DNA from: Azolla caroliniana
Lineage: Eukaryota; Plantae; Polypodiophyta
DNA: 64,000 nucleotides
Direction: 5' to 3'
Assembly: GCA_043228905.1 (NCBI GenBank)
Contig: JBHGNT010000002.1
Coordinates: 18,972,001 to 19,036,000 of the forward strand
The translations under genes and the position numbers were made by a program. The notes under the pieces are model-generated. The model had not been told where the DNA came from and ran no database searches. It was given only the letters and a program-made list of their open reading frames with translations. Positions 21,840 through 48,570 of the stretch are shown here, in pieces. How positions within the stretch are numbered: position 1 is the first letter of the stretch; every line of letters starts with the position of its first letter.

Positions 21840-24649
21840 CTGGGCCGAGGGGGTCCGGACGATCGTCTATATCCAAAACCGGATTGGAGACAAGGTGTCA
21901 GCACATGAGCTGTATTTCGGGCGGAAATCGAATTTGAGACACCTTCGGATATTCGGCAACATAACATATGTGCATGTACTAGATGAGAAGCGGAGGAAGC
22001 TGGATCCGAAGTTGGAGAAGTGCATCCTAGTCGGTTACTCGCATGAGCAAATGGGGTATAAGTGCTATAACCCCTAGACTAAGCACGTCTAAGTAAGTCG
22101 AGATGTTGAGTTTGATGAGACGGCATCATGGTACTCCTTATCGACTCCAACTCCTGACGAAGACCCGATTTCGGAAGATGAAGCTAGTGAGCTCGAGGAG
22201 GTCCAGGTAGAAGATGAAGAGTTCGACACTCTAGAAGAGAGTCCGATCTCATTTTGATTGAGTGGACCGAATAAGCGGCTAAGTCGGGATGACCAGTCGG
22301 ATGAAGAACCGGTGAGTAGTGGAGACTCTGCCATGCTCTCCCCGCACAAGGAACCGAGGAGACGGTTCACACGCAAAGAGAAAGGGAAGCAAAAACTGTC
22401 GGAATATGAAACCGGCAACGTTGAGTCGGATCAGAGCGAATCCGACTCTGGAAAGGATGAAGGTGGATCTTCGGGAACAAAGTCTGAACTGGCCAAGAAG
22501 GGCCCCAAACCGGGTGATGACAAGTTACATCGGTCTTCCCGCTAGAAGAACCCTGTTACGCGCTATGGGTACAATGAGTACATGGCACATCATTATGCGT
22601 TCATGACTAAGGTGGCAGAAGTACGTGAGTTGGAGAGCTATGTAGAAGCGGCAAAGGACACAAATTGACATGCCACTATGGAGGAAGAAATGCGGGCACT
22701 AGATGCCAATGACACATGGGACCTCGTTGACCCTCCCCGACACTGTAAACTGATCGGTTGAAAATGGGTGTACAAGGTAAAGAACAATGCCGACGGTTCG
22801 GTTAACCGGTACAAGGCCCGATTAGTGGCGAAGGGATACAAACAGACCCACGGAATCGACTACGACGAGACCTTCGCTTTGGTAGCGAAGATGATGATGG
22901 TTCGTGTGGTACTGGCGGTTGCTGCGGCAAGGGGATGGCATCTTCACCAAATGGACGTGAAGAATGTGTTTCTTCAAGGTGACCTTGAAGAATGGGTCTA
23001 TATGATCCAACCTCCTGGTTTTTAGTCGGAGATGAACAAGTCGGCGGTGTGCCGGCTTAAGCAGACGCTTTACGGTTCTGAAACAAGCCCCATGAGCTTG
23101 GAATGTGAAGATCACGCACTGGTTGTGTAATATGGGGTTTGTGACCTCTAAATCTGACTCATCGTTGTTCATCCGACAAGGTCTGGACGGTCCGGTTTGC
23201 ATCTTACTTTATGTAGATGATTTAGTCATCACCGGACCCAAACTCAATGAAATCGACCGTGTCAAGGCCCAGTTGTCGGACGCATTTGAAATGAAGAACT
23301 TGGGGGACCTTCATTATTTTCTTGGGATCGAGGTGATCCGAACCACCGATGGAATATTTCTCTCACAAAGACACTATGTGCTGAATATGATGTACACGTT
23401 CAACATGACGGAATGCCGACCAATCTCCACACCCCTGGACTGGAACCAGAAGCTCTGTCCCGACTCCGGACTGGCCTGCGATGAGAAACGGTTCCGACAA
23501 ATAGTCGGAAGTCTGATATACTTGACAATCACCCGACCCGACATCAGCTATCCGGCCAGTGTGATCAACCAATTCATGCAGAAGCCGACCGTCGAGCACC
23601 TTTAGTGTGCACACTGGATATTCCGGTACGTTAGCGGCACAAAGGACCGAGGACTGTTATCCCAACATGGTATAACTGAAGAGGTAGTCGGATGCACAGA
23701 TGCTGAATGGGCTTGTGATGCATTGGATCGTCGATCCACCTCTGGTTACATGTTTTCTCTTGGTAGCGCGACTGTTGCGTGGAGCAACAAGAAGTAGCCA
23801 ACAGTGGTTGTTGAGTATCGGGGCGCTACCAATGCCACCTGTGCAGCCGATCTGGCTTCGGCAACTGCTGCGAGATCTCCGGATCGAGGTGCCGACCCCG
23901 ATCCTGATCTATTACGAGAACATGAGCAGCATACAGCTCGCCAAGAACCCCATATTCCATGCTCGAACAAAGCACATAGAAGTGCATTATCACTTCATGC
24001 GTGAGCGGGTCTTGAGCGGTGAAGTCAAACTTCGGTATGTTTAGACGGATCGACAGGTTGCCGACATCTTCACCAAACCGCTCAGATTGGACAAGTTGTA
24101 ACACTTCACCAAAATGCTTGGTGTTCAACATCTTGACGTGCTGCACTTGAGGGGGAGAACGGGCATGGGCAAAGGCAAAGAAACTGCTGATGGCACCGGA
24201 CAACCGGAGAGGAAGAAAGAACCAACAAAGGGGGAGACAAGAGGAAAAAGGAAGCCGAGTCGACGAAGGAAATCGGCACATCCAAGAAAGTCGGAACGAG
24301 CGGCAGTGGCGGCAGAGTCAAGAAGGACAGAGCCGACTAGAAGGAGAAGGCTAAGACCCGGACATGGTATGATGTGGTGAAGGGCCTGAAACCAGAAGAG
24401 GAGTTGGAGAACACAAACTAGGACAAGAGCTGGAACGAAGCGGGAGTGATCGATTCGGACAAGGACTAGAACGAATCAGAGACTGCTGATTCGCTTCAAC
24501 AGTTGGATTTGGAGGAGCTGGATCAACTAAAGGCCAAGTGGACATGGATGCAGCGGAAGTCGACGCCAACACAAAGGAACCGACGGGTCGACAAGCGTGG
24601 GAGTTGCAACATCGAGGGAGCTGAAATGGGCTTGGTGAGCAGACAAGCT
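21840..24649 (+). pseudogene. pol: A pol: integrase end, RT, RNase H and C-terminal extension
   Basis: [35 protein letters not shown]; many stops. Confidence 0.88.
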
Positions 24650-25175: not shown

Positions 25176-27335
25176 ATGGCTGCTGAGAATGGAAGCCAAA
25201 TAGTCATAGAAAAGTTGGATAAAAACAATTTCAAGGCGTGGAAATTCAGAATGACAAATTTCGTTATGGGGAAAGGATATTGGGATTATATTGAAGGAGA
25301 CCTAGAAGAGGCTCTAGAGATCCCTGAAGAAAATGCAATTGCTGCACAGATTAAAGCATTTAAGGAATGAAATCAAGGGGCAAGAAAGGTATGGCATTGG
25401 CTCTTACTTAGCATCTTAGATTCGATGCTTGGACACATACAAGATGCTATGCTTCCAAAAGAAGCTTGGGATAGTTTAGTAAAACTGTTTGCAGTGAACA
25501 CAAAGGCTAGAAAGCTTCAGTTGAAGACTGAGCTAAATACCTTGGAAAAAGGTTAGATGTCAGTGAATGAGTATGCTCTGAAAATAAAGAGCATATGTGA
25601 ATCACTTGCTTCTATCAATGTGAAGGTAGAAGATGATGATAAGGTGGAAATATGCTTAAGAGGCTTAGGACCTCAATATAAAAGCTTCAAAACATCTATT
25701 CTCACAAGGAATAACATTCCAAGTTTTCTAGATTTGGTTTCAATGCTTGTAGTGGAAGAAAGAAATCAGATGGATGATGTAAACAAAGGAAACTCTGAGA
25801 CTGAGGGACATCCCCTCTACAATAGTGCTGGAAGAGGCCATGGAAGATTTGGTTCAGCTAGAACCAACAACAATAGTTATTAAGGAAGAGGACATGTTAC
25901 AAGTGGAAGAAACAACATCAGAAGCATGGGGAGCAATCGAGACAGAGGTAAGCAAACTTATTTGAATGATGATGGCTGTTGGTATTGTGGAAAACCAAGC
26001 CATACACAGGCTGAATCCTATAAAAAGCAAAATGATGAAAAAAGAGGGAAGAGACAACGAAATAATTATGCCTCAACTTGTGAAGACTGTGATAAAGATG
26101 GTGCATTTGTGGTGCAACATGAAACGACATCAATGGTTGAATGTTCACAAAGATGCAATGAAGAGTTTATGTGGTATGTAGATTCTGGGGCATCTAATCA
26201 TATGTAAGGACATGCAAACTGGTTTGAAAGTCTAAGAGAACTAGAGATTCTTGGTTATGTACAAACATGTGATAATACTACTCACCAAATAGAGCATATG
26301 TTGGAGATATTCCATTGTGGGAAGAAAAAGGAAAAACTAAGTATATGCTGAATGTGATGCATGTTCCAAACCTTGCAAAAAATTTGATTTCTGTTGGACA
26401 AATAGTAGAGCAAGGAATGCAAGTTAAGTTCAAGCAAAGTGGATGCTTTATAGAGAAACGGGGAAAACTTATTGCAAAAGGAAAACGTCAAGGAAGAATG
26501 TTTGTGTTAGATGTGGATATGCCTAAAAAGATTACAACCATGTTTGCAGAAGGAATGAGTGTAATCTCAGATGTGGAGATGTGGCATAAAAGAATCGGTC
26601 ACATACGTATGCAAACCTTGAAAAATATGTTGAGGAAAAATGCAGTGGTTGGACTGCCTAAGCTAAAAGACTGTGAGATGAGCAAAATATGTGAAGCATG
26701 TCAATATGGAAAACAAAACAGGTTGCCTTTCCCTCATGAAAGACATGTAAACAAATCTTTTTTTGGATTTGGTACATATAGATGTATGGGGACCAACAAA
26801 AAATGCATCAATTAGTGGATGTAAATTTTATGTAACTTTCATTGATGATTGCTCAAGGAAAACATGGGTTTACTTCACGAAAGAAAAAAGTGAAGTATTT
26901 GATTGTTTCTGTAAGTTTAAATGCATGGTAGAAAAGCAGGTTGGAACTAGAATAAAATGCCTAAGATCTGATGGAGGAGGAGAATACTTCTCAAATGAGT
27001 TTTCTGATTTTCTATGTAATCAAGGAATAAGGAGATAGTTTACATGTAGATATACTCCACAACAAAATGGAGTTGCTGAGAGAAAAAATAGAACTCTAGT
27101 GAAGATAGCAAGAGCCATAATGACAGAAAAAAATATGCCATTGTATTACTGGATAGAAGATGTAAACACAACAAACTATATCCTAAATAAATGTATAACA
27201 TCTGGAGTACATGAAGTAACTCCTGAAGAATGTTTCGATGGCAAGAAGCCTAGTTTAGAACACTTAAAAGTGTTTCGATGCCTTGCTTATGTTCATGTAC
27301 TTGCTAAAGTAAGAAGTAAGCTTGATCCAAAAGCT
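25176..27335 (+). pseudogene. pol: E gag, protease, integrase
   Basis: CWYCGKPSH, WYVDSGASNHM, YVTFIDD, LRSDGGGEY. Confidence 0.88.
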
Positions 27336-27820
27336 TGTTAGCCGGCCGGCAAAAACTGTGTTATCGCTAGGGCCGGACAATGGCCTAACACAGGGTGTCC
27401 CCTTGAGACACTTCACCAAAGGGGTGTTGCGGTGAGATAAAGTTAGATCCACTATTAATGGAACCCTAATTGGTTACTAAGCGGCAAGATCATTAGTCAC
27501 AATACACGTGTAGGATAAATTACACTTAGCACAGAACGATAATTAATAATGATTAAGATACAAAACAACAACACTATTAATTATCCGCTTCTGATTACAA
27601 TCTAACTGGGCCCTTTTATAAGTCTCCGGCTTTAGGTACAAACTGGTGCCAACCGGCAACCGACTACGAACCGGTCCAGATCCGGATTGGCATACCGATT
27701 CCGGGTCCGTCTGTTCGCTTCTCAAAATCATAATAATTCTATATTATAACTAATCAGCTCCTGGTTATTAATTATCCCCCTTTTCCCATTCTGGACTTCC
27801 CTTGCCGGCCGACTAACACA

Positions 27821-27837
27821 TGGCACGCCCGTGGGAC
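27821..27837 (+). promoter_or_regulatory. tRNA-Arg PBS-like motif at G's PPT position
   Basis: TGGCACGCCCGTGGGAC, 2 nt after the LTR end CTAACA; resembles the plant tRNA-Arg(UCU) PBS TGGCACGCCC(A/G)GTGGGAC. Confidence 0.65.
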
Positions 27838-30523
27838 AGTACCTTGTACGTCGAATCCCACGATCCGGCCTTCATTCATCCTCCAAAATGTCCAAAATGC
27901 TTTGATCTAAGGGTTCCAATGGTTCCTCGGGAAGCTGTTTTGTCATCTGCTGCTGCTATTGTTCCTCCTCCTGTTGTTCCTGCGGCTGTGGCTGCTCTTC
28001 TTGCCGCTCTGGCTTTAGTTGTGGTTGCTGCTGGTTGACGTTCGTTGCCTGCGGCTCCGTTGGTCTGACCGGCTCTGTCTCCATTTCCGGCTCGACTGGT
28101 CTTACCAGCTCTTCCTCCTTTTCCGGCTCTACCGGTCTTGGCGTCTCCTGGTTCTGTTGTGTGGCATGCACCGGTTCCTGCAGATGACCTTCCTTTAGTG
28201 GCTCCTCCTGAGTACTATCTGGTTGGCTTCCCCCGGCTTTAACCGGCGTTTGTTCTGAAGATGGCTCCTTGTCACTGATGCTAATCGCCGTAGTTTTCTT
28301 GGCCACTTCTTGCCGTCACCGTTCCCATTCATACTTTTCAAAACGGAGTTGGTTGTCCAACTGGTCATCATCCAGCTGTGCCACCAACTGGCGTACCGCC
28401 ACCCTCTGCTCATCAACCAAGGATATGAAATCATCCGACAATTCATCTTTTATTGCTTCAATGTTTTCTTTATCCAGGATGTTTTCTTTCCACCGGTTTT
28501 CCGCATTTGGCCGCAACAACTGTAGCTCTGCTGCCTGCTTAGCCCACTTCGACCACCATTGTATTGAGCTTTCTTCCACCAATTGCTTTGTTCGATTCCT
28601 CCATGCTAGTACGATGTCCCGGATCCGCCCCAGCCCCATCTTTGACTTGTTTTCCGCGGCCTGTTTTTCGTCCTTCAATTGTTTGATTAGGCTTGCGGTT
28701 GCCACTTCTTGGCTTCTGTAGTGCATGAGTTGGGTCTGATATGTCGTCTGAACTCTGTTCAGAGTCATTGTAGCGCGCTCTATTTCCGCATGGTGCTGCA
28801 CTTGCAGGTCCAATCGCTCTTTCGCTGTTGCCACTAGTTGTTTCGCTACTTCGGCTCCCTTCGACTGCTCTTCCATAAATGCCGCCGTCAACCGGTTAAT
28901 TTCCTCCCGGAGTTCCATGCACTTTTCCTACTGCCGGTCACTTTCAGTAGTCAATTTCTTATGATCGGCATCCAAATGCTTATAATCCCGGTGCAGTCGG
29001 TTGAAGTCGTCGGTTTTCTGTTTGAGCTTTTGATTGATAAGCCGATGAGCGCGGTCCTCACGGTCTTTTTGTTGCCGGAACTCTTCTTTGAGGTGCTCAA
29101 TCTCCACTTCTGCCGTCCTCCGAAGTTTCTCTTTTTCTTGCAGGAGTTTGTCTTTCTCTTCTTTCAGCCAATCATATGCTTGATGATCTCTTCTCAAGCT
29201 TTCCTCTTTTCGGTAGAGGCTGTCGACCGTTCTCCTTTGTTCCTCCTCCGCCGCTTTTTTCAATTCTCATTCCCTGGCTCGTAAGGTTTCTTGTGCTGCT
29301 AGGTCTTCCCTTAATGTTGTGAGCTTCTGTGCTGATGATTTATGAGTATCCGGGCCTGCTGCCGTCACTGGGGTTTGATTGTTCTGGAGAGTTACCGAGG
29401 TCACTGGTTCCGATTGCTGTGGTCCTTCTATGACCAACTTGGCCATTTCTGTTTTGGCCTTCTCTATGTCTTCTTCCATGCTCCGGATTCTTGACCGGGC
29501 CTTCTCTAATTCCTCGGTTGTGGCTAGCAACCGGGCTTCCTGCGCTTTCTCTTCCGCTTCTAACTGGCAGATGACCCCAGTCACTTGTTCTGCTACCCAT
29601 CGGAGCCATTGACTGCCGGTGCCATGTTGTTGTGCCGGTTCTGGTCGTGGGATGGCATTTTCACTGGTCACGAGCCTACTATTGACGGTTACGTCAAACG
29701 GCCGCTCCGGTTCTGGCTGTTGCTGCAGCTGCGGCAATGCTGGCAATTCAATGACTGGTTCTTGATCCACCGGTACTGCCGTGTCCTGGACTGCGGGTTC
29801 TGCGATGTCCTGCTGCAACACTTGCTCCGTCCCTGATTCTTGTTGAGCCAGTTCTGTCGCCTTCCTAGGCTGCGGCTCCTTAGGGAGGGCTTCCAGTATA
29901 ATATCCTCCATTGGCCTTGATGTCCCCCCTTCGTGGCCCTTTTCACTTGTCTGGTGACGACATAACAACGTCTCCGTCGGCTCGTCTTCCTGCTGTTCTT
30001 CCACCAGTGTCTTGCTATTGATTAACGCTGCCAAGGGGTCCTGCCCCTACGTTTTCTCCGGTTGCTGTTCTGCTTGTTGTTTCGACAGGCACAACTTGAT
30101 TTTCAATGGTCTCCCCGAGGTGTCCACCACCGCCTCCTTCTCTGCCAGCCGCTTTCGATTAGGCCGTTCCTTCGCTTGGGTAGCTAGGAGTTGCTGCCGT
30201 TTTGAAGCTTTTTTGGGGGTCTTTTCTGTCGGTCTTCCCCTCTTTCTTTGTTTCATGGGCTCCACTGGCAGTGCTAACAAAGTGAGCCATTGCGCCACTG
30301 CTGTCCACATCTTTTTGCCACCTTTTATTGAGATGATGGCAACGCTCAAGCCGTTGGCGATCATTACCGGCAAATCCACCTGTACTCCCTCATAGGTAGC
30401 TATGATCAAACCGGCTCTATTCCTGGGCATCACCGGTGGTCGGGGGTATACATGACCATACTCGTGGATTACCCGAGCAATTTCCCGAAACAATAGGTCT
30501 TCACCGCCTTGCATGCGGTACAT

Positions 30524-31995
30524 TGTCGCGAAGTTTCGCGCATGTTTGTTACTCGGGCGGGACCACGAGGGTCTTGGACTAGGGAGTACTCAAGGGATTG
30601 AGAAGACCCGAGGTTTGCTTTACGACAATACTACTTCCCGACCCCTTCCCGAGCAAGGTCTCGTTGCCCTTTGTTTTGTGAGGCCGGTGGCTCTCGTTGA
30701 TCACGACTCGTCGACCTTCCAAGATCACCGCACGAGCCAAGTGACCAAATGGGTACAAGCAAGATGAGCACGCAACATGAACGCACAAGGGGACGATAAC
30801 AAAAACACGAATGTCCGTACGTCTTTATGAGGAGGAGAGGTGCATGGGCACGCCCAAACGCTCCCTCGTCACAAGATGTCGAACGTACGAGGAAGACACA
30901 AAACACATGCACAAATGCTCGTACGCCTTTATGAGGAGGAGAGGTGCATGGGCAAGCTCGAACGGTCCCCTCGTCACAAGATGGCCGAACGTACACGGAA
31001 GACACAAACACACGCACAAATGCTTGTACGCCTTTATGAGGAGGAGAGGTGCATGGGCAAGCCCGAACGGTCCCCTCGTCACAAGACGGCCGAACCTACA
31101 CGGAAGACACGAATAAAGAAAGAAGGAGAGAAAGAAACACAAATGATATCGACCAAAGAGATAAATACGTGTTCGGTTCCAACGCAAGAGGAACCTTTAT
31201 AAAATAGGGTTTTGTTTACAATGGCAACTTATAGTTAACCACAAGCTCAATGAAAACATAAATATTAAATGCCCTTAGAGAAAAAAGCAAATCCGAACAC
31301 GGCGAAGATGAACACAGGAGCACCACCAAAATGCCAATCCCAACGAACCACGACCTCCTGAACGGCGAGCACACGGGCTCGCAACGAAGAACAGGGCAGA
31401 GCAACGTCGAACCAAAGAAGCTTGGGCTCACGATCACTTCGAGTGCCGACGCGAAGAAGACGAGCACGTGGCGATGGGGGGGGATGAAGGGGTATGAGAT
31501 GAAGAGAAGTGGTGAATAAGAAGATGAGGAGCTTCGAAGGAAAATTGGCAATAGTCTCCTCCTCCCAAAACGTCCTCCCGAATGAGCCCCCCCCGACCTC
31601 CTTTTATAGGAAAAAAAAGAAGGGGGGGTCGCCAAATTTGTCTTCAGTGAAAAAGGAATAAAATTCCTTAAATCGCGCTGCATTGTAAGTCCAAATTCAA
31701 ACCATGCACCTCTAGGTAATAGTCAATGTGACTATCCACTAGCCCACTAACTCTCTCTTATATAATATATAAATCTATCTCTATAAATTCATAGCATGTC
31801 TCCCCTCTACCTTTTATCTCTCCTCTCTCTTACTTTTTGCACGAGCTTCTATACCTCCTTTTCACCTTTTCTTTTCCTTTTTAATTTGCATATGCACAAT
31901 TAATCGCTTTTGTGTGCACACACATTGCACATGCACATTTTTTAACCCCCCCTTTCGCCGGTTTTTCCCACTCTCAAGCACGCCACATCACGACA
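30524..31995 (-). repeat. Solo LTR H (about 1.47 kb) of another Gypsy family
   Basis: TGTCGCGA..TCACGACA termini, minus-strand TATA near 31600, no coding capacity, no clear TSD. Confidence 0.7.
30810..31112. repeat. Tandem repeat, about 105 bp x 3, inside H
   Basis: GTACG(C/T)CTTTATGAGGAGGAGAGGTGCATGGGC recurs at about 30817, 30921 and 31026. Confidence 0.85.
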
Positions 31996-32724: not shown

Positions 32725-35137
32725 CTACTCGAACGGATTCTGTGGCATAGGTCCACAATATGGTTTGAGTCGAAACCCATTGATCCATTTGCCCATTATC
32801 TGACCGATGAGCGTTCCGAGTTGGTATGAACCGTTGAATTCCCGCGTTATCCAATACGGTCCGATCCACCGGAACCGTAGCTTTCCCGGCATCTGACCCA
32901 TCCGGGTCTGGAACACCAGTACCGGCTTGCCGATCCCGAACATCTTCTCATTGCCCTTCCGGTGCCGATTGACAAACGCCTTCCTTCGTCGCTGCTCCAG
33001 TTCCAACTGCATGAGACTTGCTATCCGATGCTCCTCGAGTTTGCATAATGCGGCTAACCGGATTTTTTCTGATTCCTTTTCACTTAGTCGTTCTCTAACC
33101 TGTATCTGCAAACTCGGAACTTGAAATTCGATCGGGATTACTGCTTCAAGCCCAAATGCTAACCGGAATGGTGTTGACCGGATACTCGTTTTGTATGCTG
33201 TCCAGTATGCCCATAGTGCACTATGCAGCTTGGTGTCCCAATCGGTCCGGTTTTCATTGACGGTCTTTCGCAGGGTGTTTTAGAGCGTTTTGTTTGTGGA
33301 TTCGGCTAGTCCATTGGCCTGTGGATAATAAGGGGTACTGCACTTGTGTACCATTGCATAGAATGTTGTTAACCTCTCCACTACTTGATCGAGAAAATGT
33401 CCGCCTTGGTCGCTAATTAACTCGATCGGGCATCCATACCGGCACCAGATGTACTCATATAAGAACTTTGTCGTTGATGCCACAATGTTGTCCCGCAAAG
33501 CCTTGGCTTCTACCCACTTGGTGCAATAATCAGTGGCGACTATAACATATCTGTTGCCGGTTCTCATTGCGGGAGGTTTAAATGGCCCAATGAAATCCAG
33601 TCCCCATTTCTGAAATGGTTCTAAGGGTAGCATCGGCTAGTGAGGCATCCTTGTCTGTTCTGTTGGTTGGCCCATCCGTTGACATAAATCACAAACTTTC
33701 GCATACCGAACCGAGTCCTTCAGTGTTGTCGGCCACGATAGCCCGCTGTGCCATATCTTTCTTGCCGTAGCATCCCCGGCATAGTGCCCTTTGGCAATGC
33801 CACAGTGCGCTTCTCGTAATATTGTGTCCTTTTCGTCGCTTTGCACTGCTCGCCGCCATATGTCATCCGCGCCTTTGTGGTACAGGGTGTCCTGTAGTAG
33901 ACAAAAATGTCGGCTTTGTACCGCTTACCGCTTCCGCTCATCTCGGTTCATCTCCTCCGGTGGAAGTCCCGTGCTTAGGAATTGATGCATGTTGGTTAGC
34001 GACTTGTCTTCATCGACTACCGTGCTATCGACTGCCGTTTTGGTTGTTACTTTAAACAACTCAGCATCCGGAAACTCATCCGGGACTCCGTCGCTGGTCT
34101 CATCGGAGTCTAACCGGCTCAGATAATCGGCAACCGCATGTTGTATTCCCAGCCAGTGATATATTTCGAACTCAAACTCTTGTAGCAACAATGTCCATCG
34201 GGTCAGCTTGCCGGTGAGTGATGCCTTTGAGACCAAATATAACAGCGTTGAGTGGTCGACATGGAATGAAATTTTCCTTCCCAATAAATAGTGCCTGAAC
34301 TTGGTAACATTGTAAATCATCCCTAAGACTTCTCTTTCCGTTGTTGAATAATTTCTTTCCGCCTGGGGTAGCTTCTGGCTAGCATAATAGACTGGTCGGT
34401 ACCATTTCGGTTCAGTCAGTTGCATTAGTGTGCTGCCGATTGCTATGTGGGACGCATCAACGAACACGTGGAATTCTTTTGACCAGTCCGGTGGTTGCAC
34501 CATTGGTGCTTGTGATAGCAGTACTTTTAGTGCCTAGTAAGCCTCATCCTCCGTATTTGTCCATTGAAACAGTGTTTGGTGAACCGCGACATGCAACGGT
34601 GTAGCAAGATCGGCCAAATACCGAAGCATCCGGCAATGCCACCGGATTTGCCCTAGAAACCGACTCAAAGCTTTAGCCATGGATGGTGCTGGTGCTTCTA
34701 AGATTTCTTTGATCTTATTGGGGTCTACTGCGATCCCGTTCTTGCTGACAAGATGGCCCAACAATGCACCGCTTGTTACTCCGAACACACACTTTGCTGG
34801 ATTCACGCTTAACCGATAACTCCTGCATTTCTCAAGACATAGCCAGAGGTGTTGGAGATGCTCTCCTTCTCGACTATACATGACGAAGTCATCCAGGAAT
34901 ACCTACACGAATGCCGGAATGAACTCGCCAAATATTTCCATGATTATTCGTTGGAAGGTCGCCGACACGGTCTTGAGCCCGAACATCATTACCACTACGA
35001 CGAAAACTCCCCATTCGGTGATGAACGCCGTCTTGTCTTGGTCGTCGGGGTGCATCCTTATTTGATTTGTAGCTGCTAAAACCGTCTAGAAAGCTATACA
35101 CTTCATGACTGGCTACCGCGTCCAGGACTCCATCCGT
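32725..35137 (-). pseudogene. pol: G pol: RT (3' part), RNase H, integrase
   Basis: FVDASHIAIG, NYSTTERE, WGLDFIGPF, ISDQGGHF, WIGPY. Confidence 0.88.
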
Positions 35138-35777
35138 TGTCGTGAAGAAAACCGTCCACAAGCGGAATCGGTGTACCGGAGCGTAGAAACCGACTCTTCA
35201 TGCACGTGCGCCTTAAGTTGTACATAGGAGATCCTAGGTAGATTCGGTAGGTAGGGAGTAAAGGGGAAACGGCTCCTTCCTTGCCTATAAAAGGAGGGAG
35301 ACGAGGAGGGTAGAGGGATCGCGGAGAGCCGAGGACGAAGTGCTGTCGGTTTGCGTGCGAAGGCTTCTCTCTCTCTTTCTGGTTGCAAACGCCATAGCTT
35401 CCTTTTGTGCAGGTTTCGGGAGGCCCGCGCTGCTCTGAGGAATGCCCGAGTGCTTCCGGCAGCACCTCCAACCTGTTCCCGTCTTTCTGTGCGTTTACGA
35501 ACAGGTATCGGCATCTGTCCGCCGGCCTGTTCGGTTGTAACCGACTTCGTGTTTTGTTGTCCTCGTGTTCTTGTTGTTTGTCTTGTCAATACATACATAC
35601 TTTCGTGGTTTTCTGTGTCGCTGTCCCATTCGCGTCTTTGCGTCGAAGGGCCGTGTCCCTGTGAATCTACGCTCGCACGTAGTGGGTCTCTCTCTCTCTC
35701 TCTCTCTTACTCTTTGGTACACGACCCCCGAGGTCCCGCCTCACTCCACGCATCCGCGAGGAATACCTTGACATATT

Positions 35778-35794
35778 TGGTGAACCCGACGTGA
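35778..35794 (+). promoter_or_regulatory. PBS complementary to tRNA-Trp
   Basis: TGGTGAACCCGACGTGA, 4 nt after the LTR, matching the tRNA-Trp 3' end. Confidence 0.8.
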
Positions 35795-37944
35795 AAGAGG
35801 CGGCAGAAGAGCAGAAGATGAGGGGGTCGGATCTTGCAGAGGCCATGGCTTCGGCCGTGGATCGGATATTGAGCACACGCGAGGGCACCGGCGCCCTCGA
35901 CAGAGCCATTGAGGCGGTCGTCGGTACGATCGGCCGTTTCAGCGGAAAGGATGCTACGAAGTATTTGGCGTCCTACGGGGCGGAAATGCTGATGCGGGAC
36001 ATTCCGGAAGAGAGGCGTCTTGCCGGGTTCCCTCGAGTGGCGATGCTGAGCATCCATGCGGAGGTGCTCGAGGTACGGGCGGAGAGCCGTACCTGGGAGG
36101 AGTTCGAAGGTCGACTCCTAGAGAAATACGGGCTGGACGACGCGCTCCGGCTTTCGAAACAGGACTTCATGGAATGGGTGGAGTCCCCCGGCAAAGGAAG
36201 AAACGCGTTGGCACTCCTCCGGGAGTTCGAAGAACGCTTTGCGCGCCTTTCGGCGCTTAACCGAACTATCCTGGATACGAGCCGGGTCCTACTGTTCGTC
36301 AAGTCGGTGGACGAGCGGGACCGGGATCAAGTCGGCTCCTTGCTGGAAACTGAAGACGGGTTGACGACCGACTGGGCTGCGGTTAAGAGAGTCTGTGGCC
36401 GTTTCGACAAACGGCGAGAATGGGCTGACAATGGGGCGGCCGGTGCGGGCTCTGTTACAGCAAGGAGGCTTGAACCGGCGCCGCAAGTGCGAAGGGAAGA
36501 AACCCGGGAATGGCTCGAAACCGGTTCGGCTTCAACCAGCATGGCCAATGGCTCGTCCGGAGGAGCAGCGCTAGAGGAGTTGACGCGGGCGATAAAGGAT
36601 CTCCAGATCGCCCAGACTCGAAGGGAAGGCGGCGAACCGGCTCGTGACCGACAGCCGGCAGCGGGGAACAGGTGCATGTGGTGCGACGAGGTCGGCCACA
36701 TTCGGAAGGACTGCGGCGACTTCGCAGAGGCGTTGAGAAACCGGGTGGTGTACCTGTGGGAAGGCCGGGTGCACGCTGGCGACACCAGGAGGGCCCTGAG
36801 CCGAAACGACGGGCGAGGAGGTATGAAGAGACCGATGGAAGAGGCAGCGGCCCGACACGTGGAGGCCATCCACTACTCGGCGTCGGCCGGTATTCGGGTC
36901 GGGGGCAGCGAGGCCCGAAAGGAGAGTAAAGACGGTTCCTGGTCGGCAATGCTGGAAGGCCTCGCCGGCGCACAACTGAGGAAAGATGAAACGGACCGCG
37001 TTGAGAGACGGGTCCGGGAAATAACCGGGTGGAGCGATCCGGTCGAGGAGAAGACGGGCTTCGTAGAAGCCGCTTGCCGGAACTACGAGGCTCTGGTAGA
37101 AGATAAGCGAGTAGGGAAAGCCGGAGCGGCCGGGCCCTCACAACGGTACGAGACCCGATTCGGGCAACGACGGAACGATGCCGGCGGGTCCAGCCCGCAA
37201 GATAACCCCAGGAAGGGCGGGTACCGACTGGGGACAGAAATAGAAAGGACTACGGACCTACGGAAGGTCCTAGAGGAACGGATCCTCGACAGCAAAGTGG
37301 AGCTGTCATTGCGAGAGGTGCTAGGGATCGCCAAGAAGGAATTCCACGACTCCATTGTGGACCTGGTGAAACGGAAGAGGCTATCAACGGAGACGGATCC
37401 GGAAAGACCGGTAGAGGTGCGGACGACGCACATCGACGACTTGGCGCTGGCAGATGAGTGGGCGGAGAGCCACTATTCGAGGCCACACTGGGCCCGAGCG
37501 ACCACGGAGACCCCGGTAAAAATCGGAGGTGTTCAGGAACCGGTGGTAGCGTTGGTGGACCACGGTTCGGAAATAAACCTAATGTCCATGGACTTCTATA
37601 AGAAGGGGAAGTGGCCGATCAACACCAAGCACGGGTGGAAGATACGGGCGGCGACGCGCGCCACCGAGGAACTGCACGGGGCCTGCCCGAATGTGCGAGT
37701 GAAGATCGGCGACGTCGAGATTGACCAGCACTTCTTCGTACAGGAGACGTCCTCGCATCCGGTCATTTTAGGCGAACCATACATCACGGCGGCGAGAATG
37801 GAGACCAAGGTGCTGGACAACGGTTCGGCCTACTGGAGGGTCAAAAGCTAGGACGGGCGCCATTCGGTGCAATTTTTGACGGTGCGGCCGAACCACGAGA
37901 GAAACCACGAATCTCTCGGTGGCGAGAGCCGGGAGGATTTTTAG
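35791..37944 (+). CDS. gag: F ORF1: gag plus aspartic protease (premature TAG at 37849, probably from CAG)
   Basis: 686-aa ORF with CMWCDEVGHIRKDC and LVDHGSEINLM. The frame continues to EDF-stop at 37944, as in C. Confidence 0.85.
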
Positions 37945-40900
37945 AGAGGGCTGCCAAGGCGTGGGGCCGAGACAGCCCGGACACTCGGAAAAGACCCCAT
38001 GACTGTACGATAGGTAGGGGATTTTGCTTCTCCGACAACGGAGGGTGTATGCTGGTCGGCATCATTGGCCGAGAAAAGACAAGGGCGGAAGAGCGACTTC
38101 GAGCGTGCGGAGTTCTTGGCCCGGACGAGGAAATCAGCGGAGCCGTGGAGGCGGTCTCCTTCGACGACACCTTAGGGATGCTGAGGAAGGTTGCCGGAGA
38201 AGACCTTAACGAAGACCGGACGATACCGGTATGTTCCGAAAAGATGTACGAAGTCATCGCGAACTTCAGTCGGGGGCTCGGGTCGGATCGGACGGCCCGA
38301 GTTAGCACAAAGTACAAGACTGTGGACCGGAAGGTAAGGCCAGTCGCGGCACCCTTACCGGAGGGCAGCGAGTCTCGGATTAGAGGGGTTGCGTCGGACC
38401 CCAGTTTACGAGATCCGGCCTGCATAGGACACACCTTCACCGACAGGACGCTCTGGGAGCTCAAAATCGGTGGGGGCGGGTTCCTACTGCCGGCGGAGGA
38501 AGAACGGATTCGGAGGATGCTCGGAAGGCACGGGAAAGCCTTCGCATTCTCACCGGGAGAGATCGGGTGCGTAGACCCGACGATCGTGGAGCCGATGGTG
38601 ATATTCACGGTACCGCATGTACCGTGGAATCTCAAGCCGATCCCGGTACCGAGAGCTCACATCCCGAAGTTGATGGAGCTACTGAGGCAGAAAGTAGATA
38701 TGGGCATTCTCGAACCGTTGAGTGCCCCATACTCGAACCGATGGTTTACCGTACCAAAGAAAAACGGAACATTGCGCTTCATTCAGGACCTGCAGCCGGT
38801 CAACAGAGTGACCATCCGGAACGCAGGAATCGGACCGACCATAGACGAGTTCGCGGAGGCCTTCGCCGGAAGGTCGATTTACTCGGTCGGTGATCTATAC
38901 TCGGGGTACAACCAGTTCCAGCTAGCCGTGGAGAGCAGAGACATTACGACAATGCGAACTCCCCTCGGCCTAGTGCGAATGTGTACCCTGCCACAAGGAG
39001 GGACTAACTCGGTGGCTCACATGGTAAATGCAATGAACAAGGTACTGAGGGATTGCATCCCCGACATCACCATGCCATTTCTGGACGACATCCCGATAAA
39101 GGGGTGCCCGGTGGAGGAGAAGGACGAGATAGTCGGGCCGGACGGATGCCGGCGATTCATAGAGAAACACATTGACGACTGCGAGAAGGTGCTACAAAGG
39201 CTAGAGGATGCTAGGCTCACCTTCTTCGGGGAGAAATCGGCCTTCGGGCAATCAGAAATCCTGGTGGTCGGACACCTATGTGGACCTTATGGTCGGAAGC
39301 CGTCTCCGGCAAAGGTAGAAGCCATCTCCACGATGAAGACCGACTGTAGCTCGGTTACGGAAGTTCGGAGGTTCCTGGGGGCATGCGCATTCTACCACAT
39401 ATGGATCCCGCATTACTCCCACGTTGCAGAGCCGCTATACGGGTTGCTGAAGAAAGGGCGAAAATTCGAGTGGCGAGACGAGCACACGGGGTCGGTCCGG
39501 AAGCTGAAGGAAGCTCTTATGGCAGCACCGGCGCTCTGGAAGGCTGTCTCGGTACCCCGGTATACATAACGGTGGATACGAGTCTGACCGGGATTGGATG
39601 GGTCGTCAACCAAGAAGACGAGGACGGCATTCGGTTCCCGATCCGATTCGGCGCGAAGGTCCTCAGTGAGCGACAGCGAGGGTACGCCCAGGTTAAACGT
39701 GAACTCTGGGGTATCGTTTCGGTAGTAAAGGCCGACAAAGACTACCTGATCGGGACAGAAGTGATTATCGAGACGGATTGCCTGCCGATTCTTGGCATGG
39801 TCTCCGGATGCGCGACACCGGACCTGGCGATGCTCAGGTGGATAGCGTACATAAAGTCCCTGGACCCAGAGATACGACACATTTCCGGAAAGGACAACGC
39901 CATAGTCGACATGCTTTCGAGGGCGAGGTTTGATGACGAGGGCGGCATGGTTTCGGAGGACGAAGAAGTCGGCGTGGACTTCTTCAAGGCGGCATACGTG
40001 ACGACCGATGGGACGAGCACTCCGGCACTTAACGACTTCTACGAGAGCAAGTACGACGGCGAGTGGCTCCAAATCGGTGGATTCTTGAGGATAATGACGC
40101 CGGATGTGTCATGGACGAAGGGCGAGGCCAACCGGATCCGGAAGAAAGCTTACCGATTCTTTCTCTCGGACGGATACTTATGGAAGCACCCGAAGAAGAG
40201 GTACGGCGCTCCGCTCCGGGTGGTGGCGATGAAGGAAGAACAGGAGGAGCTGCTGACGGCCTACCACGACAGCCCTTGGGCCGAACACCGTGGAACCTGG
40301 GCCATGTTCGAGAAGATAAAGGGGAAGTACTGGTGGCCGGGACTGTACCGGGACGTGCATCGGTTCGTGACAACTTGCGAGAGCTGTCAGATGCACTCCA
40401 TAGTCCGACACCGGGACGAACTTCACCCTATGTACCCTCCGACCATCCACTTCAAATGGATGGTAGACCTGGTAACGATGCCGATAGGAGTAGGACAGAT
40501 GCGGTATCTGGTCCTGGCTCGGGAAGATCTAACGAACCAGGTAGAAGGTCGGGCCCTTCAGAACAAAACGACTGCGGCCGAATGTCGGTTCCTGCTCGAG
40601 GACGTAATATGCCGGTACGGGTGCGTCGGGAAGATCGTGGCTGATCGCGAGGAGTTGGACGCCGAAGAGGCCGAGGAGCTGTTCGACCGGCTAGGAGTCA
40701 AGCTCTCGCTTACCACTGCGTACAATCCGGAGGCGAATGGGAAGGTGGAGCGCGGACACGGACCGATCGTCAAGGCATTAGTTTGGGCATGCGGAGGTCG
40801 GGTCGGGAACTGGCCGCGGCTACTGCCTTACGCGTTGTGGGCTGACCGGACTACGCACAGTTCGGTAACCGGATTCATGCCGGCAGAGCTCATGTTTGGG

Positions 40901-41401
40901 CAGAAGCCGATCATGCCGATCGAACGTACGGTCTCCTCATGGGCAACCGTGGACTGGAGAGACGAGATGAGCCGGGAGGAACTGCTGACGACGCGCATAC
41001 GACAGCTCGAGCGGAGACCGGAGGACGTGGAAAAGGCTGCAGAAAAGCTTCGGGTGGCCAGGACGAGGAACAAAGCCCGGTTCGACCAGACGCACCGGCT
41101 CCGACCGAAGAAGATCGAGGAAGGCGACTGGGTGCTAGTCTACGACAGCAGCCTCGACAACCAGCACCGAGCGACACAAAAGTTCACAAGAAGGTGGTTC
41201 GGGCCTTACGTGGTACAAAGCGCCAACGACAACGGGACGTACCATCTGGCGGAACTCGACGGTACGAGAATAACGATACCGGTAGCTGGGAAGCGGATCA
41301 AGACGTTCAAGAAGCGTCACAACGACGAGCCGGATCAGGATGACTTGGACCACGACGACGAGCGATCCGAAACCGAGGAAGAGCCGACGGGCGGGGAATG
41401 A
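37935..41401 (+). pseudogene. pol: F ORF2: RT, RNase H, integrase (one frameshift near 39550)
   Basis: ORFs 38049..39569 (LPQG, FLDD) and 39383..41401 (TVDTS, EHRG, GPY). Confidence 0.88.
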
Positions 41402-42118
41402 TGGCTGGACTGGTTTTCTCCGTCCAAACACAATTTGGCGCATGCCGGTGGATGCGCGGTTAGGTGGGGGCGGATGTCGTGAAGAAAACCGTCCACAAGC
41501 GGAATCGGTGTACCGGAGCGTAGAAACCGACTCTTCATGCACGTGCGCCTTAAGTTGTACATAGGAGATCCTAGGTAGATTCGGTAGGTAGGGAGTAAAG
41601 GGGAAACGACTCCTTCCTTGCCTATAAAAGGAGGGAGACGAGGAGGGTAGAGGGATCGCGGAGAGCCGAGGACGAAGTGCTGTCGGTTTGCGTGCGAAGG
41701 CTTCTCTCTCTCTCTTTCTGGTTGCAAACGCCATAGCTTCCTTCTGTGCAGGTTTCGGGAGGCCCGCGCTGCTCTGAGGAATGCCCGAGTGCTTCCGGCA
41801 GCACCTCCAACCTGTTCCCGTCTTTCTGTGCGTTTACGAACAGGTATCGGCATCTGTCCGCCGGCCTGTTCGGTTGTAACCTACTTCGTGTTTTGTTGTC
41901 CTCGTGTTCTTGTTGTTTGTCTTGTCAATACATACATACTTTCGTGGTTTTCTGTGTCGCTGTCCCATTCGCGTCTTTGCGTCGAAGGGCCGTGTCCCTG
42001 TGAATCTACGCTCGCACGTAGTGGGTCTCTCTCTCTCTCTCTCTCTCTCTCTTACTCTTCGGTACAGGACCCCCGAGGTCCCGCCTCACTCCACGCATCC
42101 GCGAGGAATACCTTGACA

Positions 42119-45100
42119 CCGTAAATGGAAGTTGAAAGGCGTCGGTCACTGTTGCCGCATTGAGTTTCCGGTAGTCGACGCACACCCGGATCTTACCGTT
42201 CTTTTTCGGCACGTTGACTATGAGGCTTAACCATGTAGCTTTTTTCATTGGTCGGATAAAACCAACTCGTAGCAACTTGTCAATTTCCTCTTTGACCTTG
42301 GCCGCATAGTTGGGGTTCATTCAGTAACATCATTGTGCTACCGGTTTGGTATCCTTACTGAGATGTATCTAGTGTTGGTTCAATTGAGGATCCAACCCCC
42401 ACATGTCTTCATATGACCAGGCGAATACGTCCCGGAAATCCTTTAATAAAGTGATCATCGCCGTCTTGTTGTCCGGTGACATTTCCTTAGCAATATGAAT
42501 TGGTCTTGTGTCGTCCCCGGTTCCTAAGTTCACTACCTCTAACTGGGATGCTTTCACGCATTGGGATACCGCCATCTCCCTCTCTAGAGCTTCCTGTGCT
42601 TGCCGTAATTCTTGGATAGCTTCCTGATCCGGTTCCTCGATGGCATCGTTCGATTGCGTTATATATGGTGACATCGCTTCTGCCACATCGATTTCAAATA
42701 GGGGTACAATTTTTGGGTTTTCTTCTAAGTATTGGTCGACCTCTTCGTCCGCAAGCCCCTCGAGCATGTTTACACCTTCCGCATATAGCGGTGTCAGGCC
42801 CTTGCCGGTACTTGCTCGAGGGTGGGTAGGTACCCTTACTTTAGTCTTCCCTCGCCGAAAGGTAATCATGTTTTTCCACCAATTTTGTTTGATATGCGCC
42901 GTTTTTAGACATGAGCGGCCCAACAACAGTGGGTAAGCCCCTTGCGCATTGAGCTGCAGGACCACCGCCAAAATTCGGAATGCGTGGCCTCCGATAGTTA
43001 CGTCTAAATCCCGTATCAAGCCGGTAGGTCTTACCGAGCTTGTATCCGCCATTCGGAGCCAAAACGGGCAAGGCTCCCATTCCTGGATTCCCAGGGTATT
43101 ACAAGTCCGTAGACTCATCACGTTCACGCCCGATCCTCCGTCCACAATCGTCCCTGGTAGTTCTGGTCCTTTGACGATGGCGGTGATTGCCGGACTATTC
43201 ATGTCCACCACTGTTGGCCCTTCTTCCGGATTTGAGAAGAACGCAGGAGCCGACAATGGATTTGATGTGGTCATTCTCGATTTCAGTCCTTCCGTAAACT
43301 GGGGAAGTAGCTATAGTAACTGACCTAATGGCAGTGTAATTTGACATTCTTGTAACGCTTGCCATGTTGGGTCTTCTTGCTGAATCGTGTTGGTGGCGTC
43401 TTCCGGTTTTTCCTTTTGTTGTTCAAGCTCAGCCACATTTTGCTCATTTGCCTTCTTCACCCACTCGGTGGCTTGCTTTCGGATTGCCTCATGTGTTTCC
43501 CACTTCGTTGTTTTGCCTTTTGTCCTGATGGTGACTTGTTGTATGTCGGTGACTTTTGCTACCACCATATTTACGGCTGGTCTTTTCTCGTAGCTTTTAA
43601 CCGGACATTGATTATTGTAATGTCCTTCTTGTCGGCAATAGTAGTAGTACGCTTTCTGGGTGTTGCTGGATTCAGTGTTCACTCCGGTAACCGGTTGAGG
43701 TCCTATTGGTGGTCAGTTGGGTACTTGGCCTTGGTCCGGTTGGGTACTTGGCATGCCTTGTCCGGCTGCCACTAGCGGTCCTCCTGTCTAGTGTTCCATT
43801 TTTTATTGAAGTGTTTTTTGTTTCGGTAACCCTGTCGGGGCCGATTTTCATAATTATCTTGGTCCTCCCTCCGTTGGTTGTAAACGGGAGAGTGATCCCG
43901 GTTGTATCGCTCATATCGTTCACCGTTGTAATCCTGGTAGCTATCCTGTTGGTCTCGGTCGTGAGCATCCTTTCTGTCACTGTTTCGGATATCTTGCGCC
44001 GGCTAGTATTGCTCGTCTCGCCACCAATGTTCTTCTTCCTCCTCTCGGTTGCTTCGGGGTTTGATTTGCCTTACCGGTGCCGCTTGCCGGTTCAGCAAGT
44101 TATATTCGCATCGGTCCATTGTGTGCATCCTAGAATGACATAACATACACTGTGTCTGCATGGTACATTCTATTGCCGAGTGCCCGACATTGAGACAAGT
44201 TGTACATTGTATAGCTTGCCGAAAACATAGGTCGTCTTCTATCGGTAATGTACCCTGGAGTGTCCCCATTGTTAGCCACAAGCTTGTTTTCTCCATCTCC
44301 CTGACCCTTTCTATGACTTGGTCGATCATGCTGGTGCGGAAATCAATCACTGCGCACACCGTACGCAGGGGTTCCTAGAGTGCTGCTAGGAATATTGTTT
44401 TAGCCTCTGCCTTTGGTTGTACCTGATTGAGCTGATTGTGCATTCGTTGGAACCAGATTACAAATTGCTGAATGGTTTCTGTAGGTTCTTGCTGTATGGT
44501 GTAGAATAGGTTGACCATCTCTCGTTGATCCACCTCCTTGTTGAAGAACTGTAAAAATCTGGTTTTTAAGTCCTCAAACGCCGTGATGGTGCCAGGAGTG
44601 TGTGTCAAGCGCCATCGCGCAGCTGGTCCTTCCAAGGTCATGCCGAACTTTGCAATCTTCGAGCGTTCTGCTTCGGCGGCGGTCAAGTGTTGCAACACAT
44701 GGTTCGCTTCCCATGTTTGTAGAAATGCATAGATATGAGCTTCTGCATCCGGATCATCCTAGTTCTTGGGATATTGGAACGACATGTCCTTGTCGAGTGT
44801 CAGAGGTCTTTCCTCCTCTTCTTTCGGTGGCTCATGTGGCAATGTCGGAAGTTGATCCGCCACTTGTCGGTCTGGGGCTTCCACTTTCGTTAACTCTGGT
44901 TTTGGTGTCGGCGAGGTATTCGACTGCTCGTCCTCCGGTCCGTTTGGGGTATCGTGGCTGCTATGGTAATTCGAATGGGCGCTGCATTCCTCGTCCGAAT
45001 CCGATTCAAAGGCCAAGAACGGTTCCGAATCGCCTCCCCCTGTCGCTAGTGCTTGCAAAATGGATTCTGCGTCCCGGAGACTGCTCAAGCTGTGTCCTTC

Positions 45101-45280
45101 GTCCAGTTGGGAATTCTGCTGCCCGCAGAGTGACTCCGTGGCCACTCGCCGGATTACTTTGGAAAATGACCGATCCGCACGGATCTCTTCTGCCGCTTGT
45201 TGGAAAGCCTCTCGCTTTCGCAATTGTTCGGTAAGTCTTCTCGCTCGCTCCGTAACCGGGTCGTTTGTTGGTCTAGTCAT
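42119..45280 (-). pseudogene. gag: G gag (several zinc knuckles), protease and RT start
   Basis: ORFs 44759..45280, 44375..44698, 44003..44359, 43311..43682, 42369..43274 (IVDGGSG) and 42006..42320 (VPKKNGKIRVCVDYR). Confidence 0.85.
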
Positions 45281-45318
45281 CCATGCCCGCCACTGTTCGC
45301 TGCGTTTGTGTAGGAATC

Positions 45319-45328
45319 GTGGTCGCCA
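45319..45328 (-). promoter_or_regulatory. PBS of G (tRNA-Arg-like TGGCGACCAC)
   Basis: Lies between the 5' LTR and the gag start, exactly where LTR homology ends. Confidence 0.7.
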
Positions 45329-45802
45329 AAAACTATGTTATCGCTAGGGCCGGAAAATGGCCTAACACAGGGTGTCCCCTTGAGACACTTCATCAAAGGG
45401 GTGTTGCGGTGAGATAAAGTTAGACCGACTATTAATGGAACCCTAATTGGTTACTAAGCGGCAAGATCATTAGTCACAATACACGCGTAGGATAAATTAC
45501 ACTTAGCACAAAACGGTAATTAACAATTATTAAGATACAGAACAACAACACTCTATGAATTATCCGCTTCTGATTACAATCTAACCAGGCCCTTTTATAG
45601 GTCTCCGGCTTTAGGTACAAACCGGTGCCAACCGGCAACCGGCTACGAACCGGTCCGGATCCGGATCGGCATACCGATTCCGGGTCCATCCGTTCGCTTC
45701 TCAAAATCATAATAATTCTATATTATAACTAATCAGCTCTCGGTTATTAATTATCCCCCTTTTCCCATTCTGGACTTCCCTTGCCGACCGGCTAACAAAG
45801 CT

Positions 45803-47969: not shown

Positions 47970-48570
47970 GTTGAGCTTGAGGGGGAGTGTTGAGAAGTAA
48001 GCTCAACAAAGGTATGTGATTCTTATTGAGAAATAAGCTATAATAGCTATTAGCTAATTAGCTACTAGTGGACATAAAGGTGAAACAACTATTTAGCTAC
48101 AGACAACTAATTAGCTACTAACAACTAATTAGCTCCATATATAAGTCACTTATGTACTTAGGTAAAAAGTGTAGTAAGTAGGAAAAGAAAGTAAGAGTGA
48201 GAGTAGAGTAGAGAGAAGAAGAACAAAAAACAGAAAACTGACGAGAACAAGTTGAGCTCTGCGCGTAATGCGATAGAAGCTTTTGGACTGTGCAGAGGTA
48301 AGTCTCCTTCCCCCTTTCTTTCTATCTTGAGCACATTAATGATCCAACACATCATGATCCGCTGTGCACACAAAAGAGCCGTAGCGCCTTCGTAACAAAG
48401 CTGATCGAGGAGGTCAAGGTGTGCAGAACCAGAAGGGTCGCGACAAACAGGACCGGACTAGACGAGGAGCGTGAGCAAGGCGGAGCAACGCCAAAAGGAG
48501 CCGGGTAGAAGAACCGGCTGCCGCAGACACTAACACCACGATCCGACCTCATGTTGAGCTTGAGGGGGAG

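What the first reader, a model, noticed from the sequence alone, without database searches (positions are those of the whole stretch)
27336..27358. Asymmetric LTRs in G: the outer end carries a 17-bp inverted copy of the opposite terminus that the 5' LTR lacks
Seen: the left end is TGTTAGCCGGCCGGCAA-AAACTGTGTTATC. The right LTR shares only AAAAACT(A)TGTTATC onward (from 45328) and abuts the PBS. The extra 15 nt are the inverted repeat of the far terminus TTGCCGACCGGCTAACA (45781-45797), and the AAGCT TSD lies outside them, so this end was what integrated. Standard reverse transcription copies the U5 end from the 5' LTR and cannot make this. Inference: an additional template jump, with terminal TT pairing to AA and copying the U3 end, could rebuild an att site. 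This may be linked to the dual-tRNA arrangement.
Basis: partly seen in the sequence, partly recalled or inferred. Interest (0 to 1): 0.8.

Follow-up and report, generated by a model that had tools for sequence, protein, structure and literature searches.

The report
One-off inverted cap on retrotransposon end
One old copy of a plant jumping gene carries a short, flipped copy of its starting tip at its far end, which the other copies we could inspect lack, so it is likely a single copying accident that the integrase still inserted, not a programmed step.

Summary
The sequence is real; the 'programmed' reading is not supported. G is a minus-strand Ty3/Gypsy element with ordinary LTRs (45336-45797, 27359-27818; TGTTA...TAACA) inside a 5-bp TSD. 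Its outer end carries 23 extra nt (27336-27358): the untrimmed 7-nt LTR-PBS spacer, then an inverted copy of the U3 tip (16/17 to each LTR, 17/17 to relative L010), joined at a 3-nt microhomology (TTG). Likely origin: during reverse transcription a plus-strand U3 tip was joined to the U5/PBS boundary, giving a cDNA with two U3 ends that integrase inserted cleanly. Both LTRs are intact, so progeny would not inherit the cap. The scan has noted similar two-U3-end insertions, and the PPT-less tRNA-like site, on other DNA (unchecked notes). Left open: how this family normally removes a 7-nt U5 overhang.

The parts
27331..27335 (+). Left copy of the 5-bp target-site duplication AAGCT
   Evidence: one X2 contig of a paralogous copia passes this site without the insert (table 7, row 27334)
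27336..27352 (-). Inverted copy of the U3 tip (cap) ending in CA; the end that was integrated
   Evidence: 16/17 to each LTR's U3 tip, 17/17 to L010
27350..27352 (-). TTG microhomology: last spacer base plus first two PBS bases = first three bases of the inverted tip
27352..27358 (-). Untrimmed 7-nt U5-PBS spacer retained on the 3' LTR
   Evidence: same 7 nt lie between 5' LTR and PBS here (one transition) and in L009, L010; absent from 4 of 4 integrated U5 ends of relatives
27359..27818 (-). 3' LTR, 460 bp, TGTTA...TAACA
   Evidence: family ends mapped
27819..27861 (-). 2-nt spacer and tRNA-3'-end-like site ending in CCA with a hairpin, where a PPT is expected; no polypurine tract next to the LTR
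   Evidence: sequence; same in L010; summed contig depth peak at 27822-27865; tRNA type recalled, not tested
27959..30589 (-). Broken extra ORF 3' of pol, same sense, Glu/Lys-rich
   Evidence: no Pfam hit above cut-off
32728..35137 (-). RT C-terminal part, RNase H, integrase (broken by stops and frameshifts)
   Evidence: RVT_1 (below cut-off), RT_RNaseH, Integrase_H2C2, rve
35138..42118 (+). Nested younger Ty3-type element (LTRs 98% alike, 4-bp TSD) interrupting RT; not part of the finding
42372..45325 (-). gag and protease region
   Evidence: Retrotrans_gag E 5e-11; gag-asp_proteas E 0.013, below cut-off
45313..45328 (-). Primer-binding site, starts TGG at 45328
   Evidence: same start in L009, L010 and 44 public contigs; cognate tRNA not tested
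45329..45335 (-). 7-nt spacer between 5' LTR and PBS
45336..45797 (-). 5' LTR, 462 bp
   Evidence: K2P distance to 3' LTR 0.055
45798..45802 (+). Right copy of TSD AAGCT

Best explanation
The 23 extra bases are the untrimmed LTR-PBS spacer plus an inverted copy of the element's U3 tip, seen in this copy and in none of the other copies inspected, likely made by one mis-priming event during reverse transcription and then likely inserted by integrase as a cDNA with two U3-type ends. Shown: anatomy, TTG junction, 5-bp TSD, ordinary ends in other copies, and a cap that carries neither LTR's private transition, so it is about as old as the insertion. Inferred steps: (1) spare single-stranded plus-strand DNA starting at the U3 tip was present in the particle, as described for Ty1/Ty3; (2) it paired with the U5/PBS boundary through TTG (7-8 of 9 bases can pair), and either the plus-strand 3' end copied back along it, or a 17-19-nt tip fragment primed the minus strand at the PBS in place of tRNA; (3) integrase treated the new end as a normal U3 end and inserted both ends in one step. 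The second route would explain why the mismatched positions carry U3 letters rather than PBS letters, but the sequence cannot separate the two. The cap lies beyond the 3' LTR, so transcripts would not pass it on.
For: Other copies lack the cap: 4 of 4 assembled relatives with genomic flank end exactly at TAACA and 2 of 2 with internal flank show spacer + PBS (6 relatives among 11 loci). In 189 laid public contigs (3 samples, 3 studies), 27 carry unrelated flanks from 27354-27359 (11 exactly at 27359, 6 at 27358) and 44 run into the PBS from 27350-27351 (table 7; 4 rows not shown); the reference held the cap, so a capped contig would have aligned further left. Integrase signature: 5-bp TSD in the right orientation against terminal CA on both sides. 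Junction: 3-nt microhomology, about 5% by chance for 3 or more; it is the only TTG within 130 nt of the U3 tip and the single best ungapped match in either LTR to a 9-nt spacer/PBS tail (7/9 and 8/9). Age: cap differs from each LTR tip by a different single transition and equals L010. Substrate: dead-end plus-strand strong-stop DNAs accumulate in Ty particles and read 12 nt into the tRNA (PMC5371799 section 2.2).
Against: No read or contig confirms this junction itself; it rests on the window's assembly. The 9-nt match was chosen after seeing the data: with 12 PBS bases it ties for best in the 5' LTR (8/13) and is not best in the 3' LTR (7/13), and by DNA duplex energy the tip window ranks 10th to 331st among the LTR's 17-nt windows, depending on tail length. 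The four assembled relatives are related subfamilies (75-89% over the aligned part), not siblings, and contigs are not independent (X1 = X3; shared flanks between X2 and X4). 10 of the 27 genomic-flank contigs align 3-5 nt into the spacer, so ends may be less exact than a single cut. The sequence cannot exclude joining by host repair before integration.
Confidence: 0.68

Rival explanations
1. Two cDNA molecules each gave a U3 end to one concerted integration (or were end-joined before it), and host microhomology-mediated repair joined the untrimmed U5 end of G to the second molecule cut back to 17 nt.
For: Predicts the same letters: two U3 ends, exact TSD, intact spacer, short microhomology. 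Host polymerases do append viral DNA in either orientation to a free end using short homology (PMC5041404 passages).
Against: Needs loss of almost a whole second element while the first keeps its end to the base. The host-mediated HIV/ASLV ends in those passages were often truncated and usually had long duplications or deletions instead of the 5-bp TSD seen here. Copying the right-hand junction in reverse would give a different base order after TAACA than is seen.
Confidence: 0.15
2. A same-family element first inserted here in the opposite orientation (its U3 tip at 27336); G later landed in it and a deletion between the shared TAACA ends removed the rest.
For: Explains TSD plus inverted tip without an RT jump; nesting is common in this window.
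Against: Needs two more rare events (an untrimmed G end and an exact deletion) and leaves the TTG junction unexplained; no other remnant of a second copy lies in the window.
Confidence: 0.06
3. The cap is a programmed step of this lineage that rebuilds an att site on every 3' LTR.
For: The family has a long 7-nt spacer at U5 and an unusual plus-strand priming site, so unusual end formation is conceivable; the U3 tip resembles the PBS at 7-8 of 9 bases.
Against: 4 of 4 assembled relatives and 27 public contigs end at or next to the internal TAACA with unrelated flanks.
Confidence: 0.03
4. Assembly or consensus error.
For: No independent read support for the junction was obtained.
Against: The cap equals neither local LTR tip, and it sits between the LTR and the correct host flank with a correct TSD; a mis-join to another copy would bring that copy's flank.
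Confidence: 0.04

Closest known systems
Aberrant retroviral integrations with viral DNA appended at one end (HIV-1, ASLV; PMC5041404, passages read)
   Same: One normal end; the other end extended by element DNA in inverted orientation through a short homology.
   Different: There the bad end is inserted by host enzymes and the TSD is usually replaced by long duplications or deletions; here both ends finish in CA inside an exact 5-bp TSD, so the join likely came before integration.
Template-switch complex LTR insertions in Triticeae (Sabot and Schulman 2007, PMC1950507, abstract read)
   Same: Abnormal template switch during reverse transcription makes a rearranged cDNA that is integrated as one unit in a plant genome.
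   Different: Those fuse two elements around a shared LTR; here one complete element gains only a 17-nt inverted tip.
Ty3/Ty1 plus-strand primer recycling with dead-end strong-stop DNA (PMC5371799, passages and section 2.2 read)
   Same: Supplies the predicted substrates: displaced single-stranded plus strands that start at U3 and read into the tRNA.
   Different: PPT-primed; the section describes no inverted U3 cap. G has a tRNA-end-like site where the PPT should be.
Plant non-chromovirus Ty3/Gypsy, Athila-like side of OTA (PMC6317226, passages read)
   Same: PR-RT-RH-INT order, no aRH or chromodomain hit, extra 3' ORF, 5-bp TSD, non-Met PBS.
   Different: No phylogenetic placement was run; PPT replaced; 7-nt LTR-PBS spacer (that survey allowed 0-5 bp for imperfect PBS calls).

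Membership tests
   0 of 4 assembled relatives; 27 genomic-flank contigs stop at 27354-27359
   2 of 2 relatives and 44 contigs run from spacer into PBS
Integrase-mediated concerted insertion | Terminal TG...CA with a family-length TSD directly outside | tested here: met
   AAGCT on both sides; 5 bp is the commonest plant TSD length
Host-mediated aberrant end (HIV/ASLV type) | Truncated end and loss of the short TSD | tested here: not met
   End extended, not truncated; TSD exact (definition)
RT template-switch product | Microhomology at the junction | tested here: met
   3 nt, about 5% by chance; extended 7-8 of 9
RT template-switch product | Junction exists in extrachromosomal cDNA before integration | not testable with these tools
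   needs cDNA-end sequencing
Ty3/Gypsy (Metaviridae-type) LTR retrotransposon | Domain order gag-PR-RT-RH-INT between direct LTRs | tested here: met
Ty3/Gypsy (Metaviridae-type) LTR retrotransposon | Polypurine tract directly before the 3' LTR | tested here: not met
   tRNA-end-like site ending CCA 2 nt before the LTR
Athila / OTA clade | No aRH, no chromodomain, extra 3' ORF | tested here: met
   no such Pfam hit in G's frames or in the closest homologues P0001-P0011
Athila / OTA clade | Placement in the RT/RH/INT phylogeny | not tested
   no labelled reference set was fetched

The most novel reading that the evidence does not exclude
In this PPT-less, likely tRNA-primed lineage the U5 end carries a 7-nt overhang that is hard to process, and short plus-strand U3 fragments repeatedly prime at the PBS in place of tRNA, so U3-capping at the same TTG is a recurrent, low-frequency rescue route that lets full-length elements integrate with two U3 ends.
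Probability: 0.15. Interest if true: 0.55.

Novelty: new member of a known kind. Interest (0 to 1): 0.24.

Why it matters
As a single event it is a fossil of a replication error: it suggests that this integrase accepts a 17-bp U3 tip as a complete attachment site on either end, and it preserves the untrimmed U5 end, which shows that the family normally has to lose 7 nt beyond the terminal CA rather than the usual 2 (usual value recalled). It does not define a new mechanism. If capped ends recur at the same junction, it would be evidence for DNA-primed initiation at the PBS and an indirect test of how this PPT-less lineage starts its plus strand.

Tried and rejected
No whole genome is held for this window, so the full copy-by-copy survey could not be run. 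Lack of cover: none of 189 laid contigs covered 27316-27348 (table 2); the tool filters records, so this hole is not counted as evidence. Exact 30-nt cap junction: 0 hits in metagenome contigs. tRNA-like motif: 0 hits in viral contigs. L010 shows one LTR with internal sequence on both sides (tandem copy or collapsed assembly), so it was used only for the U3 tip and the PBS side. No RNA holder listed. No tRNA gene in the window and no hit for the two primer-site motifs in the 5 supplement files of PMC6317226 held as text (17,418 characters; its large element table was evidently not among them and may bear on PBS type and spacer length), so tRNA identity is untested. Local deletion from the 5' LTR: rejected. 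Later gene conversion from either LTR: disfavoured, as the cap carries neither private transition. Fold-back hairpin at the U3 tip: weak (-1.0 kcal/mol), although the GCCGGCCGGC palindrome self-dimerises (-19.2); not needed for the junction. None of the other 7 repeat pairs inspected in the window showed such a cap in 25-nt flanks read by eye. Literature: 9 searches (listings only unless named elsewhere) gave no description of a full-length LTR element with an inverted U3 cap inside a normal TSD; older yeast and avian work on untidy cDNA ends (recalled) was not held. PMC10886601 (abstract) concerns tRNA-derived LTRs and does not apply; PMC6894440 (passages) gives only the canonical scheme.

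Full report
Observation. The letters are as described. Aligning both LTR regions and mapping domains shows a minus-strand Ty3/Gypsy element, gag-PR-RT-RH-INT plus a broken extra 3' ORF, with RT interrupted by a nested element (35138-42118). It sits in a copia element (24650-48397) inside the 5-bp duplication AAGCT. Named close homologues of its RNase H region include fern and liverwort proteins; most closer ones are unnamed. The LTRs proper are 45336-45797 and 27359-27818, both TGTTA...TAACA, with 24 substitutions in 460 aligned bases (K2P 0.055). In element sense the 5' LTR is followed by a 7-nt spacer and the PBS (TGG at 45328). The 3' LTR is followed by the same 7-nt spacer and then by an inverted copy of the U3 tip ending in CA. 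The addition over a normal end is 23 nt, 27336-27358. The 17-nt inverted tip matches each LTR's tip at 16 of 17 bases, at different positions, and relative L010 at 17 of 17; chance is about 3e-9.

Test against other copies. The family is abundant in public runs. Laying four runs (3 samples, 3 studies) on 27316-27390 placed 189 contigs. Of those with loose left ends in the 21 rows shown (4 rows hidden), 44 leave the reference at 27350-27351 and continue into the PBS, so 5' LTRs lack the cap as a rule and this copy has no local deletion. Another 27 leave at 27354-27359 into unrelated flanks: 11 exactly at 27359, 6 at 27358, 7 at 27356, 1 at 27355, 2 at 27354. Because the reference held the cap, a capped contig would have aligned further left. 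A scan with a conserved U5 motif gave 11 loci, 6 of them relatives. Four have genomic flanks and all four stop exactly at TAACA; two have the internal flank and show the 7-nt spacer plus PBS. Limits: the four are related subfamilies, the contigs are not independent, and a rare recurrent cap cannot be excluded with this sample.

How it most likely arose. The exact TSD against a terminal CA on both sides says that integrase inserted both ends together (inference from established integration chemistry; PMC5041404 passages). The cap carries neither LTR's private transition, so it is about as old as the insertion. The junction has a 3-nt microhomology, TTG, formed by the last spacer base and the first two PBS bases. 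It is the only TTG within 130 nt of the U3 tip, and the U3 segment there is the best ungapped match in either LTR to a 9-nt spacer/PBS tail (7/9, 8/9). That last test was post hoc and weakens with a longer tail or by duplex energy (rank 10 at best). In Ty1/Ty3, plus-strand priming is repeated, reads 12 nt into the tRNA and leaves displaced dead-end strands (PMC5371799 section 2.2). By analogy, a spare plus strand that begins at the U3 tip likely paired with the U5/PBS boundary. The second route keeps U3 letters at the mismatched positions, as observed, if the 9-nt similarity mattered; the first does so if only TT or TTG paired. Both give a blunt U3-type end that integrase can process. These steps are inferred. 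I put 0.68 on a join during reverse transcription, 0.15 on two cDNAs joined by host repair, 0.06 on an earlier opposite-orientation copy plus deletion, 0.04 on assembly error and 0.03 on a programmed step.

Link to the dual-tRNA arrangement. G does carry a tRNA-end-like site ending in CCA 2 nt before its 3' LTR and no adjacent polypurine tract; L010 has the same, and the block is far deeper in public contigs than the LTR body, so many families share it. The scan has many unchecked notes on this feature in the same genome. Nothing here ties the cap to it: families with this site end normally, and two-U3-end insertions are noted in a copia of the same genome and in unrelated Gypsy families of other genomes (not checked by me).

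Comparison and verdict. It works like known aberrant products: element DNA appended in inverted orientation by microhomology (PMC5041404) and template-switch insertions in plants (PMC1950507, abstract). It differs from the host-mediated type by its exact TSD. Nine literature searches gave no description of this precise form, but most older virology papers are not in the library. The feature is real, rare and predicted not to be heritable through retrotransposition, since it lies outside the 3' LTR. Interest 0.24. The more useful by-product is that the family's integrated U5 ends lack 7 nt that the cDNA should carry; how they are removed is open.

Noticed in passing
window 45329-45335; L001, L002, L004, L006, L009, L010: The family has a 7-nt spacer between the 5' LTR's terminal CA and the PBS, yet 4 of 4 integrated U5 ends stop at that CA; the end must lose 7 nt or plus-strand synthesis must stop early.
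   Followed up: partly
window 27354-27356 (table 7): 10 of 27 genomic-flank contigs align 3-5 nt into the spacer; could be imprecise trimming, shared loci counted twice, or alignment run-on.
   Followed up: no
window 27819-27861: tRNA-3'-end-like site with hairpin in place of a PPT, shared by many families (depth peak); already noted many times by this scan.
   Followed up: partly
window 27368-27425 and 45345-45402: A U5 block conserved across related families (summed depth 10-25 times the LTR body) with short stem-loops; candidate packaging or priming signal.
   Followed up: no
window 24645-24649 / 48398-48402 and 27331-27335 / 45798-45802: The host copia and the Gypsy element G nested in it have the same 5-bp TSD, AAGCT; chance or a shared preference for the AGCT palindrome.
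   Followed up: no
window 35138-42118: Young nested Ty3-type element with a 4-bp TSD, a 4-nt LTR-PBS spacer, a normal purine tract and a DUF4100 hit.
   Followed up: no
L010 whole contig: One LTR with internal sequence on both sides: tandem copies sharing an LTR, a one-LTR circle, or a collapsed assembly.
   Followed up: no
window 30806-31110: A 104-nt tandem repeat in G's 3' non-coding region between integrase and the extra ORF.
   Followed up: no
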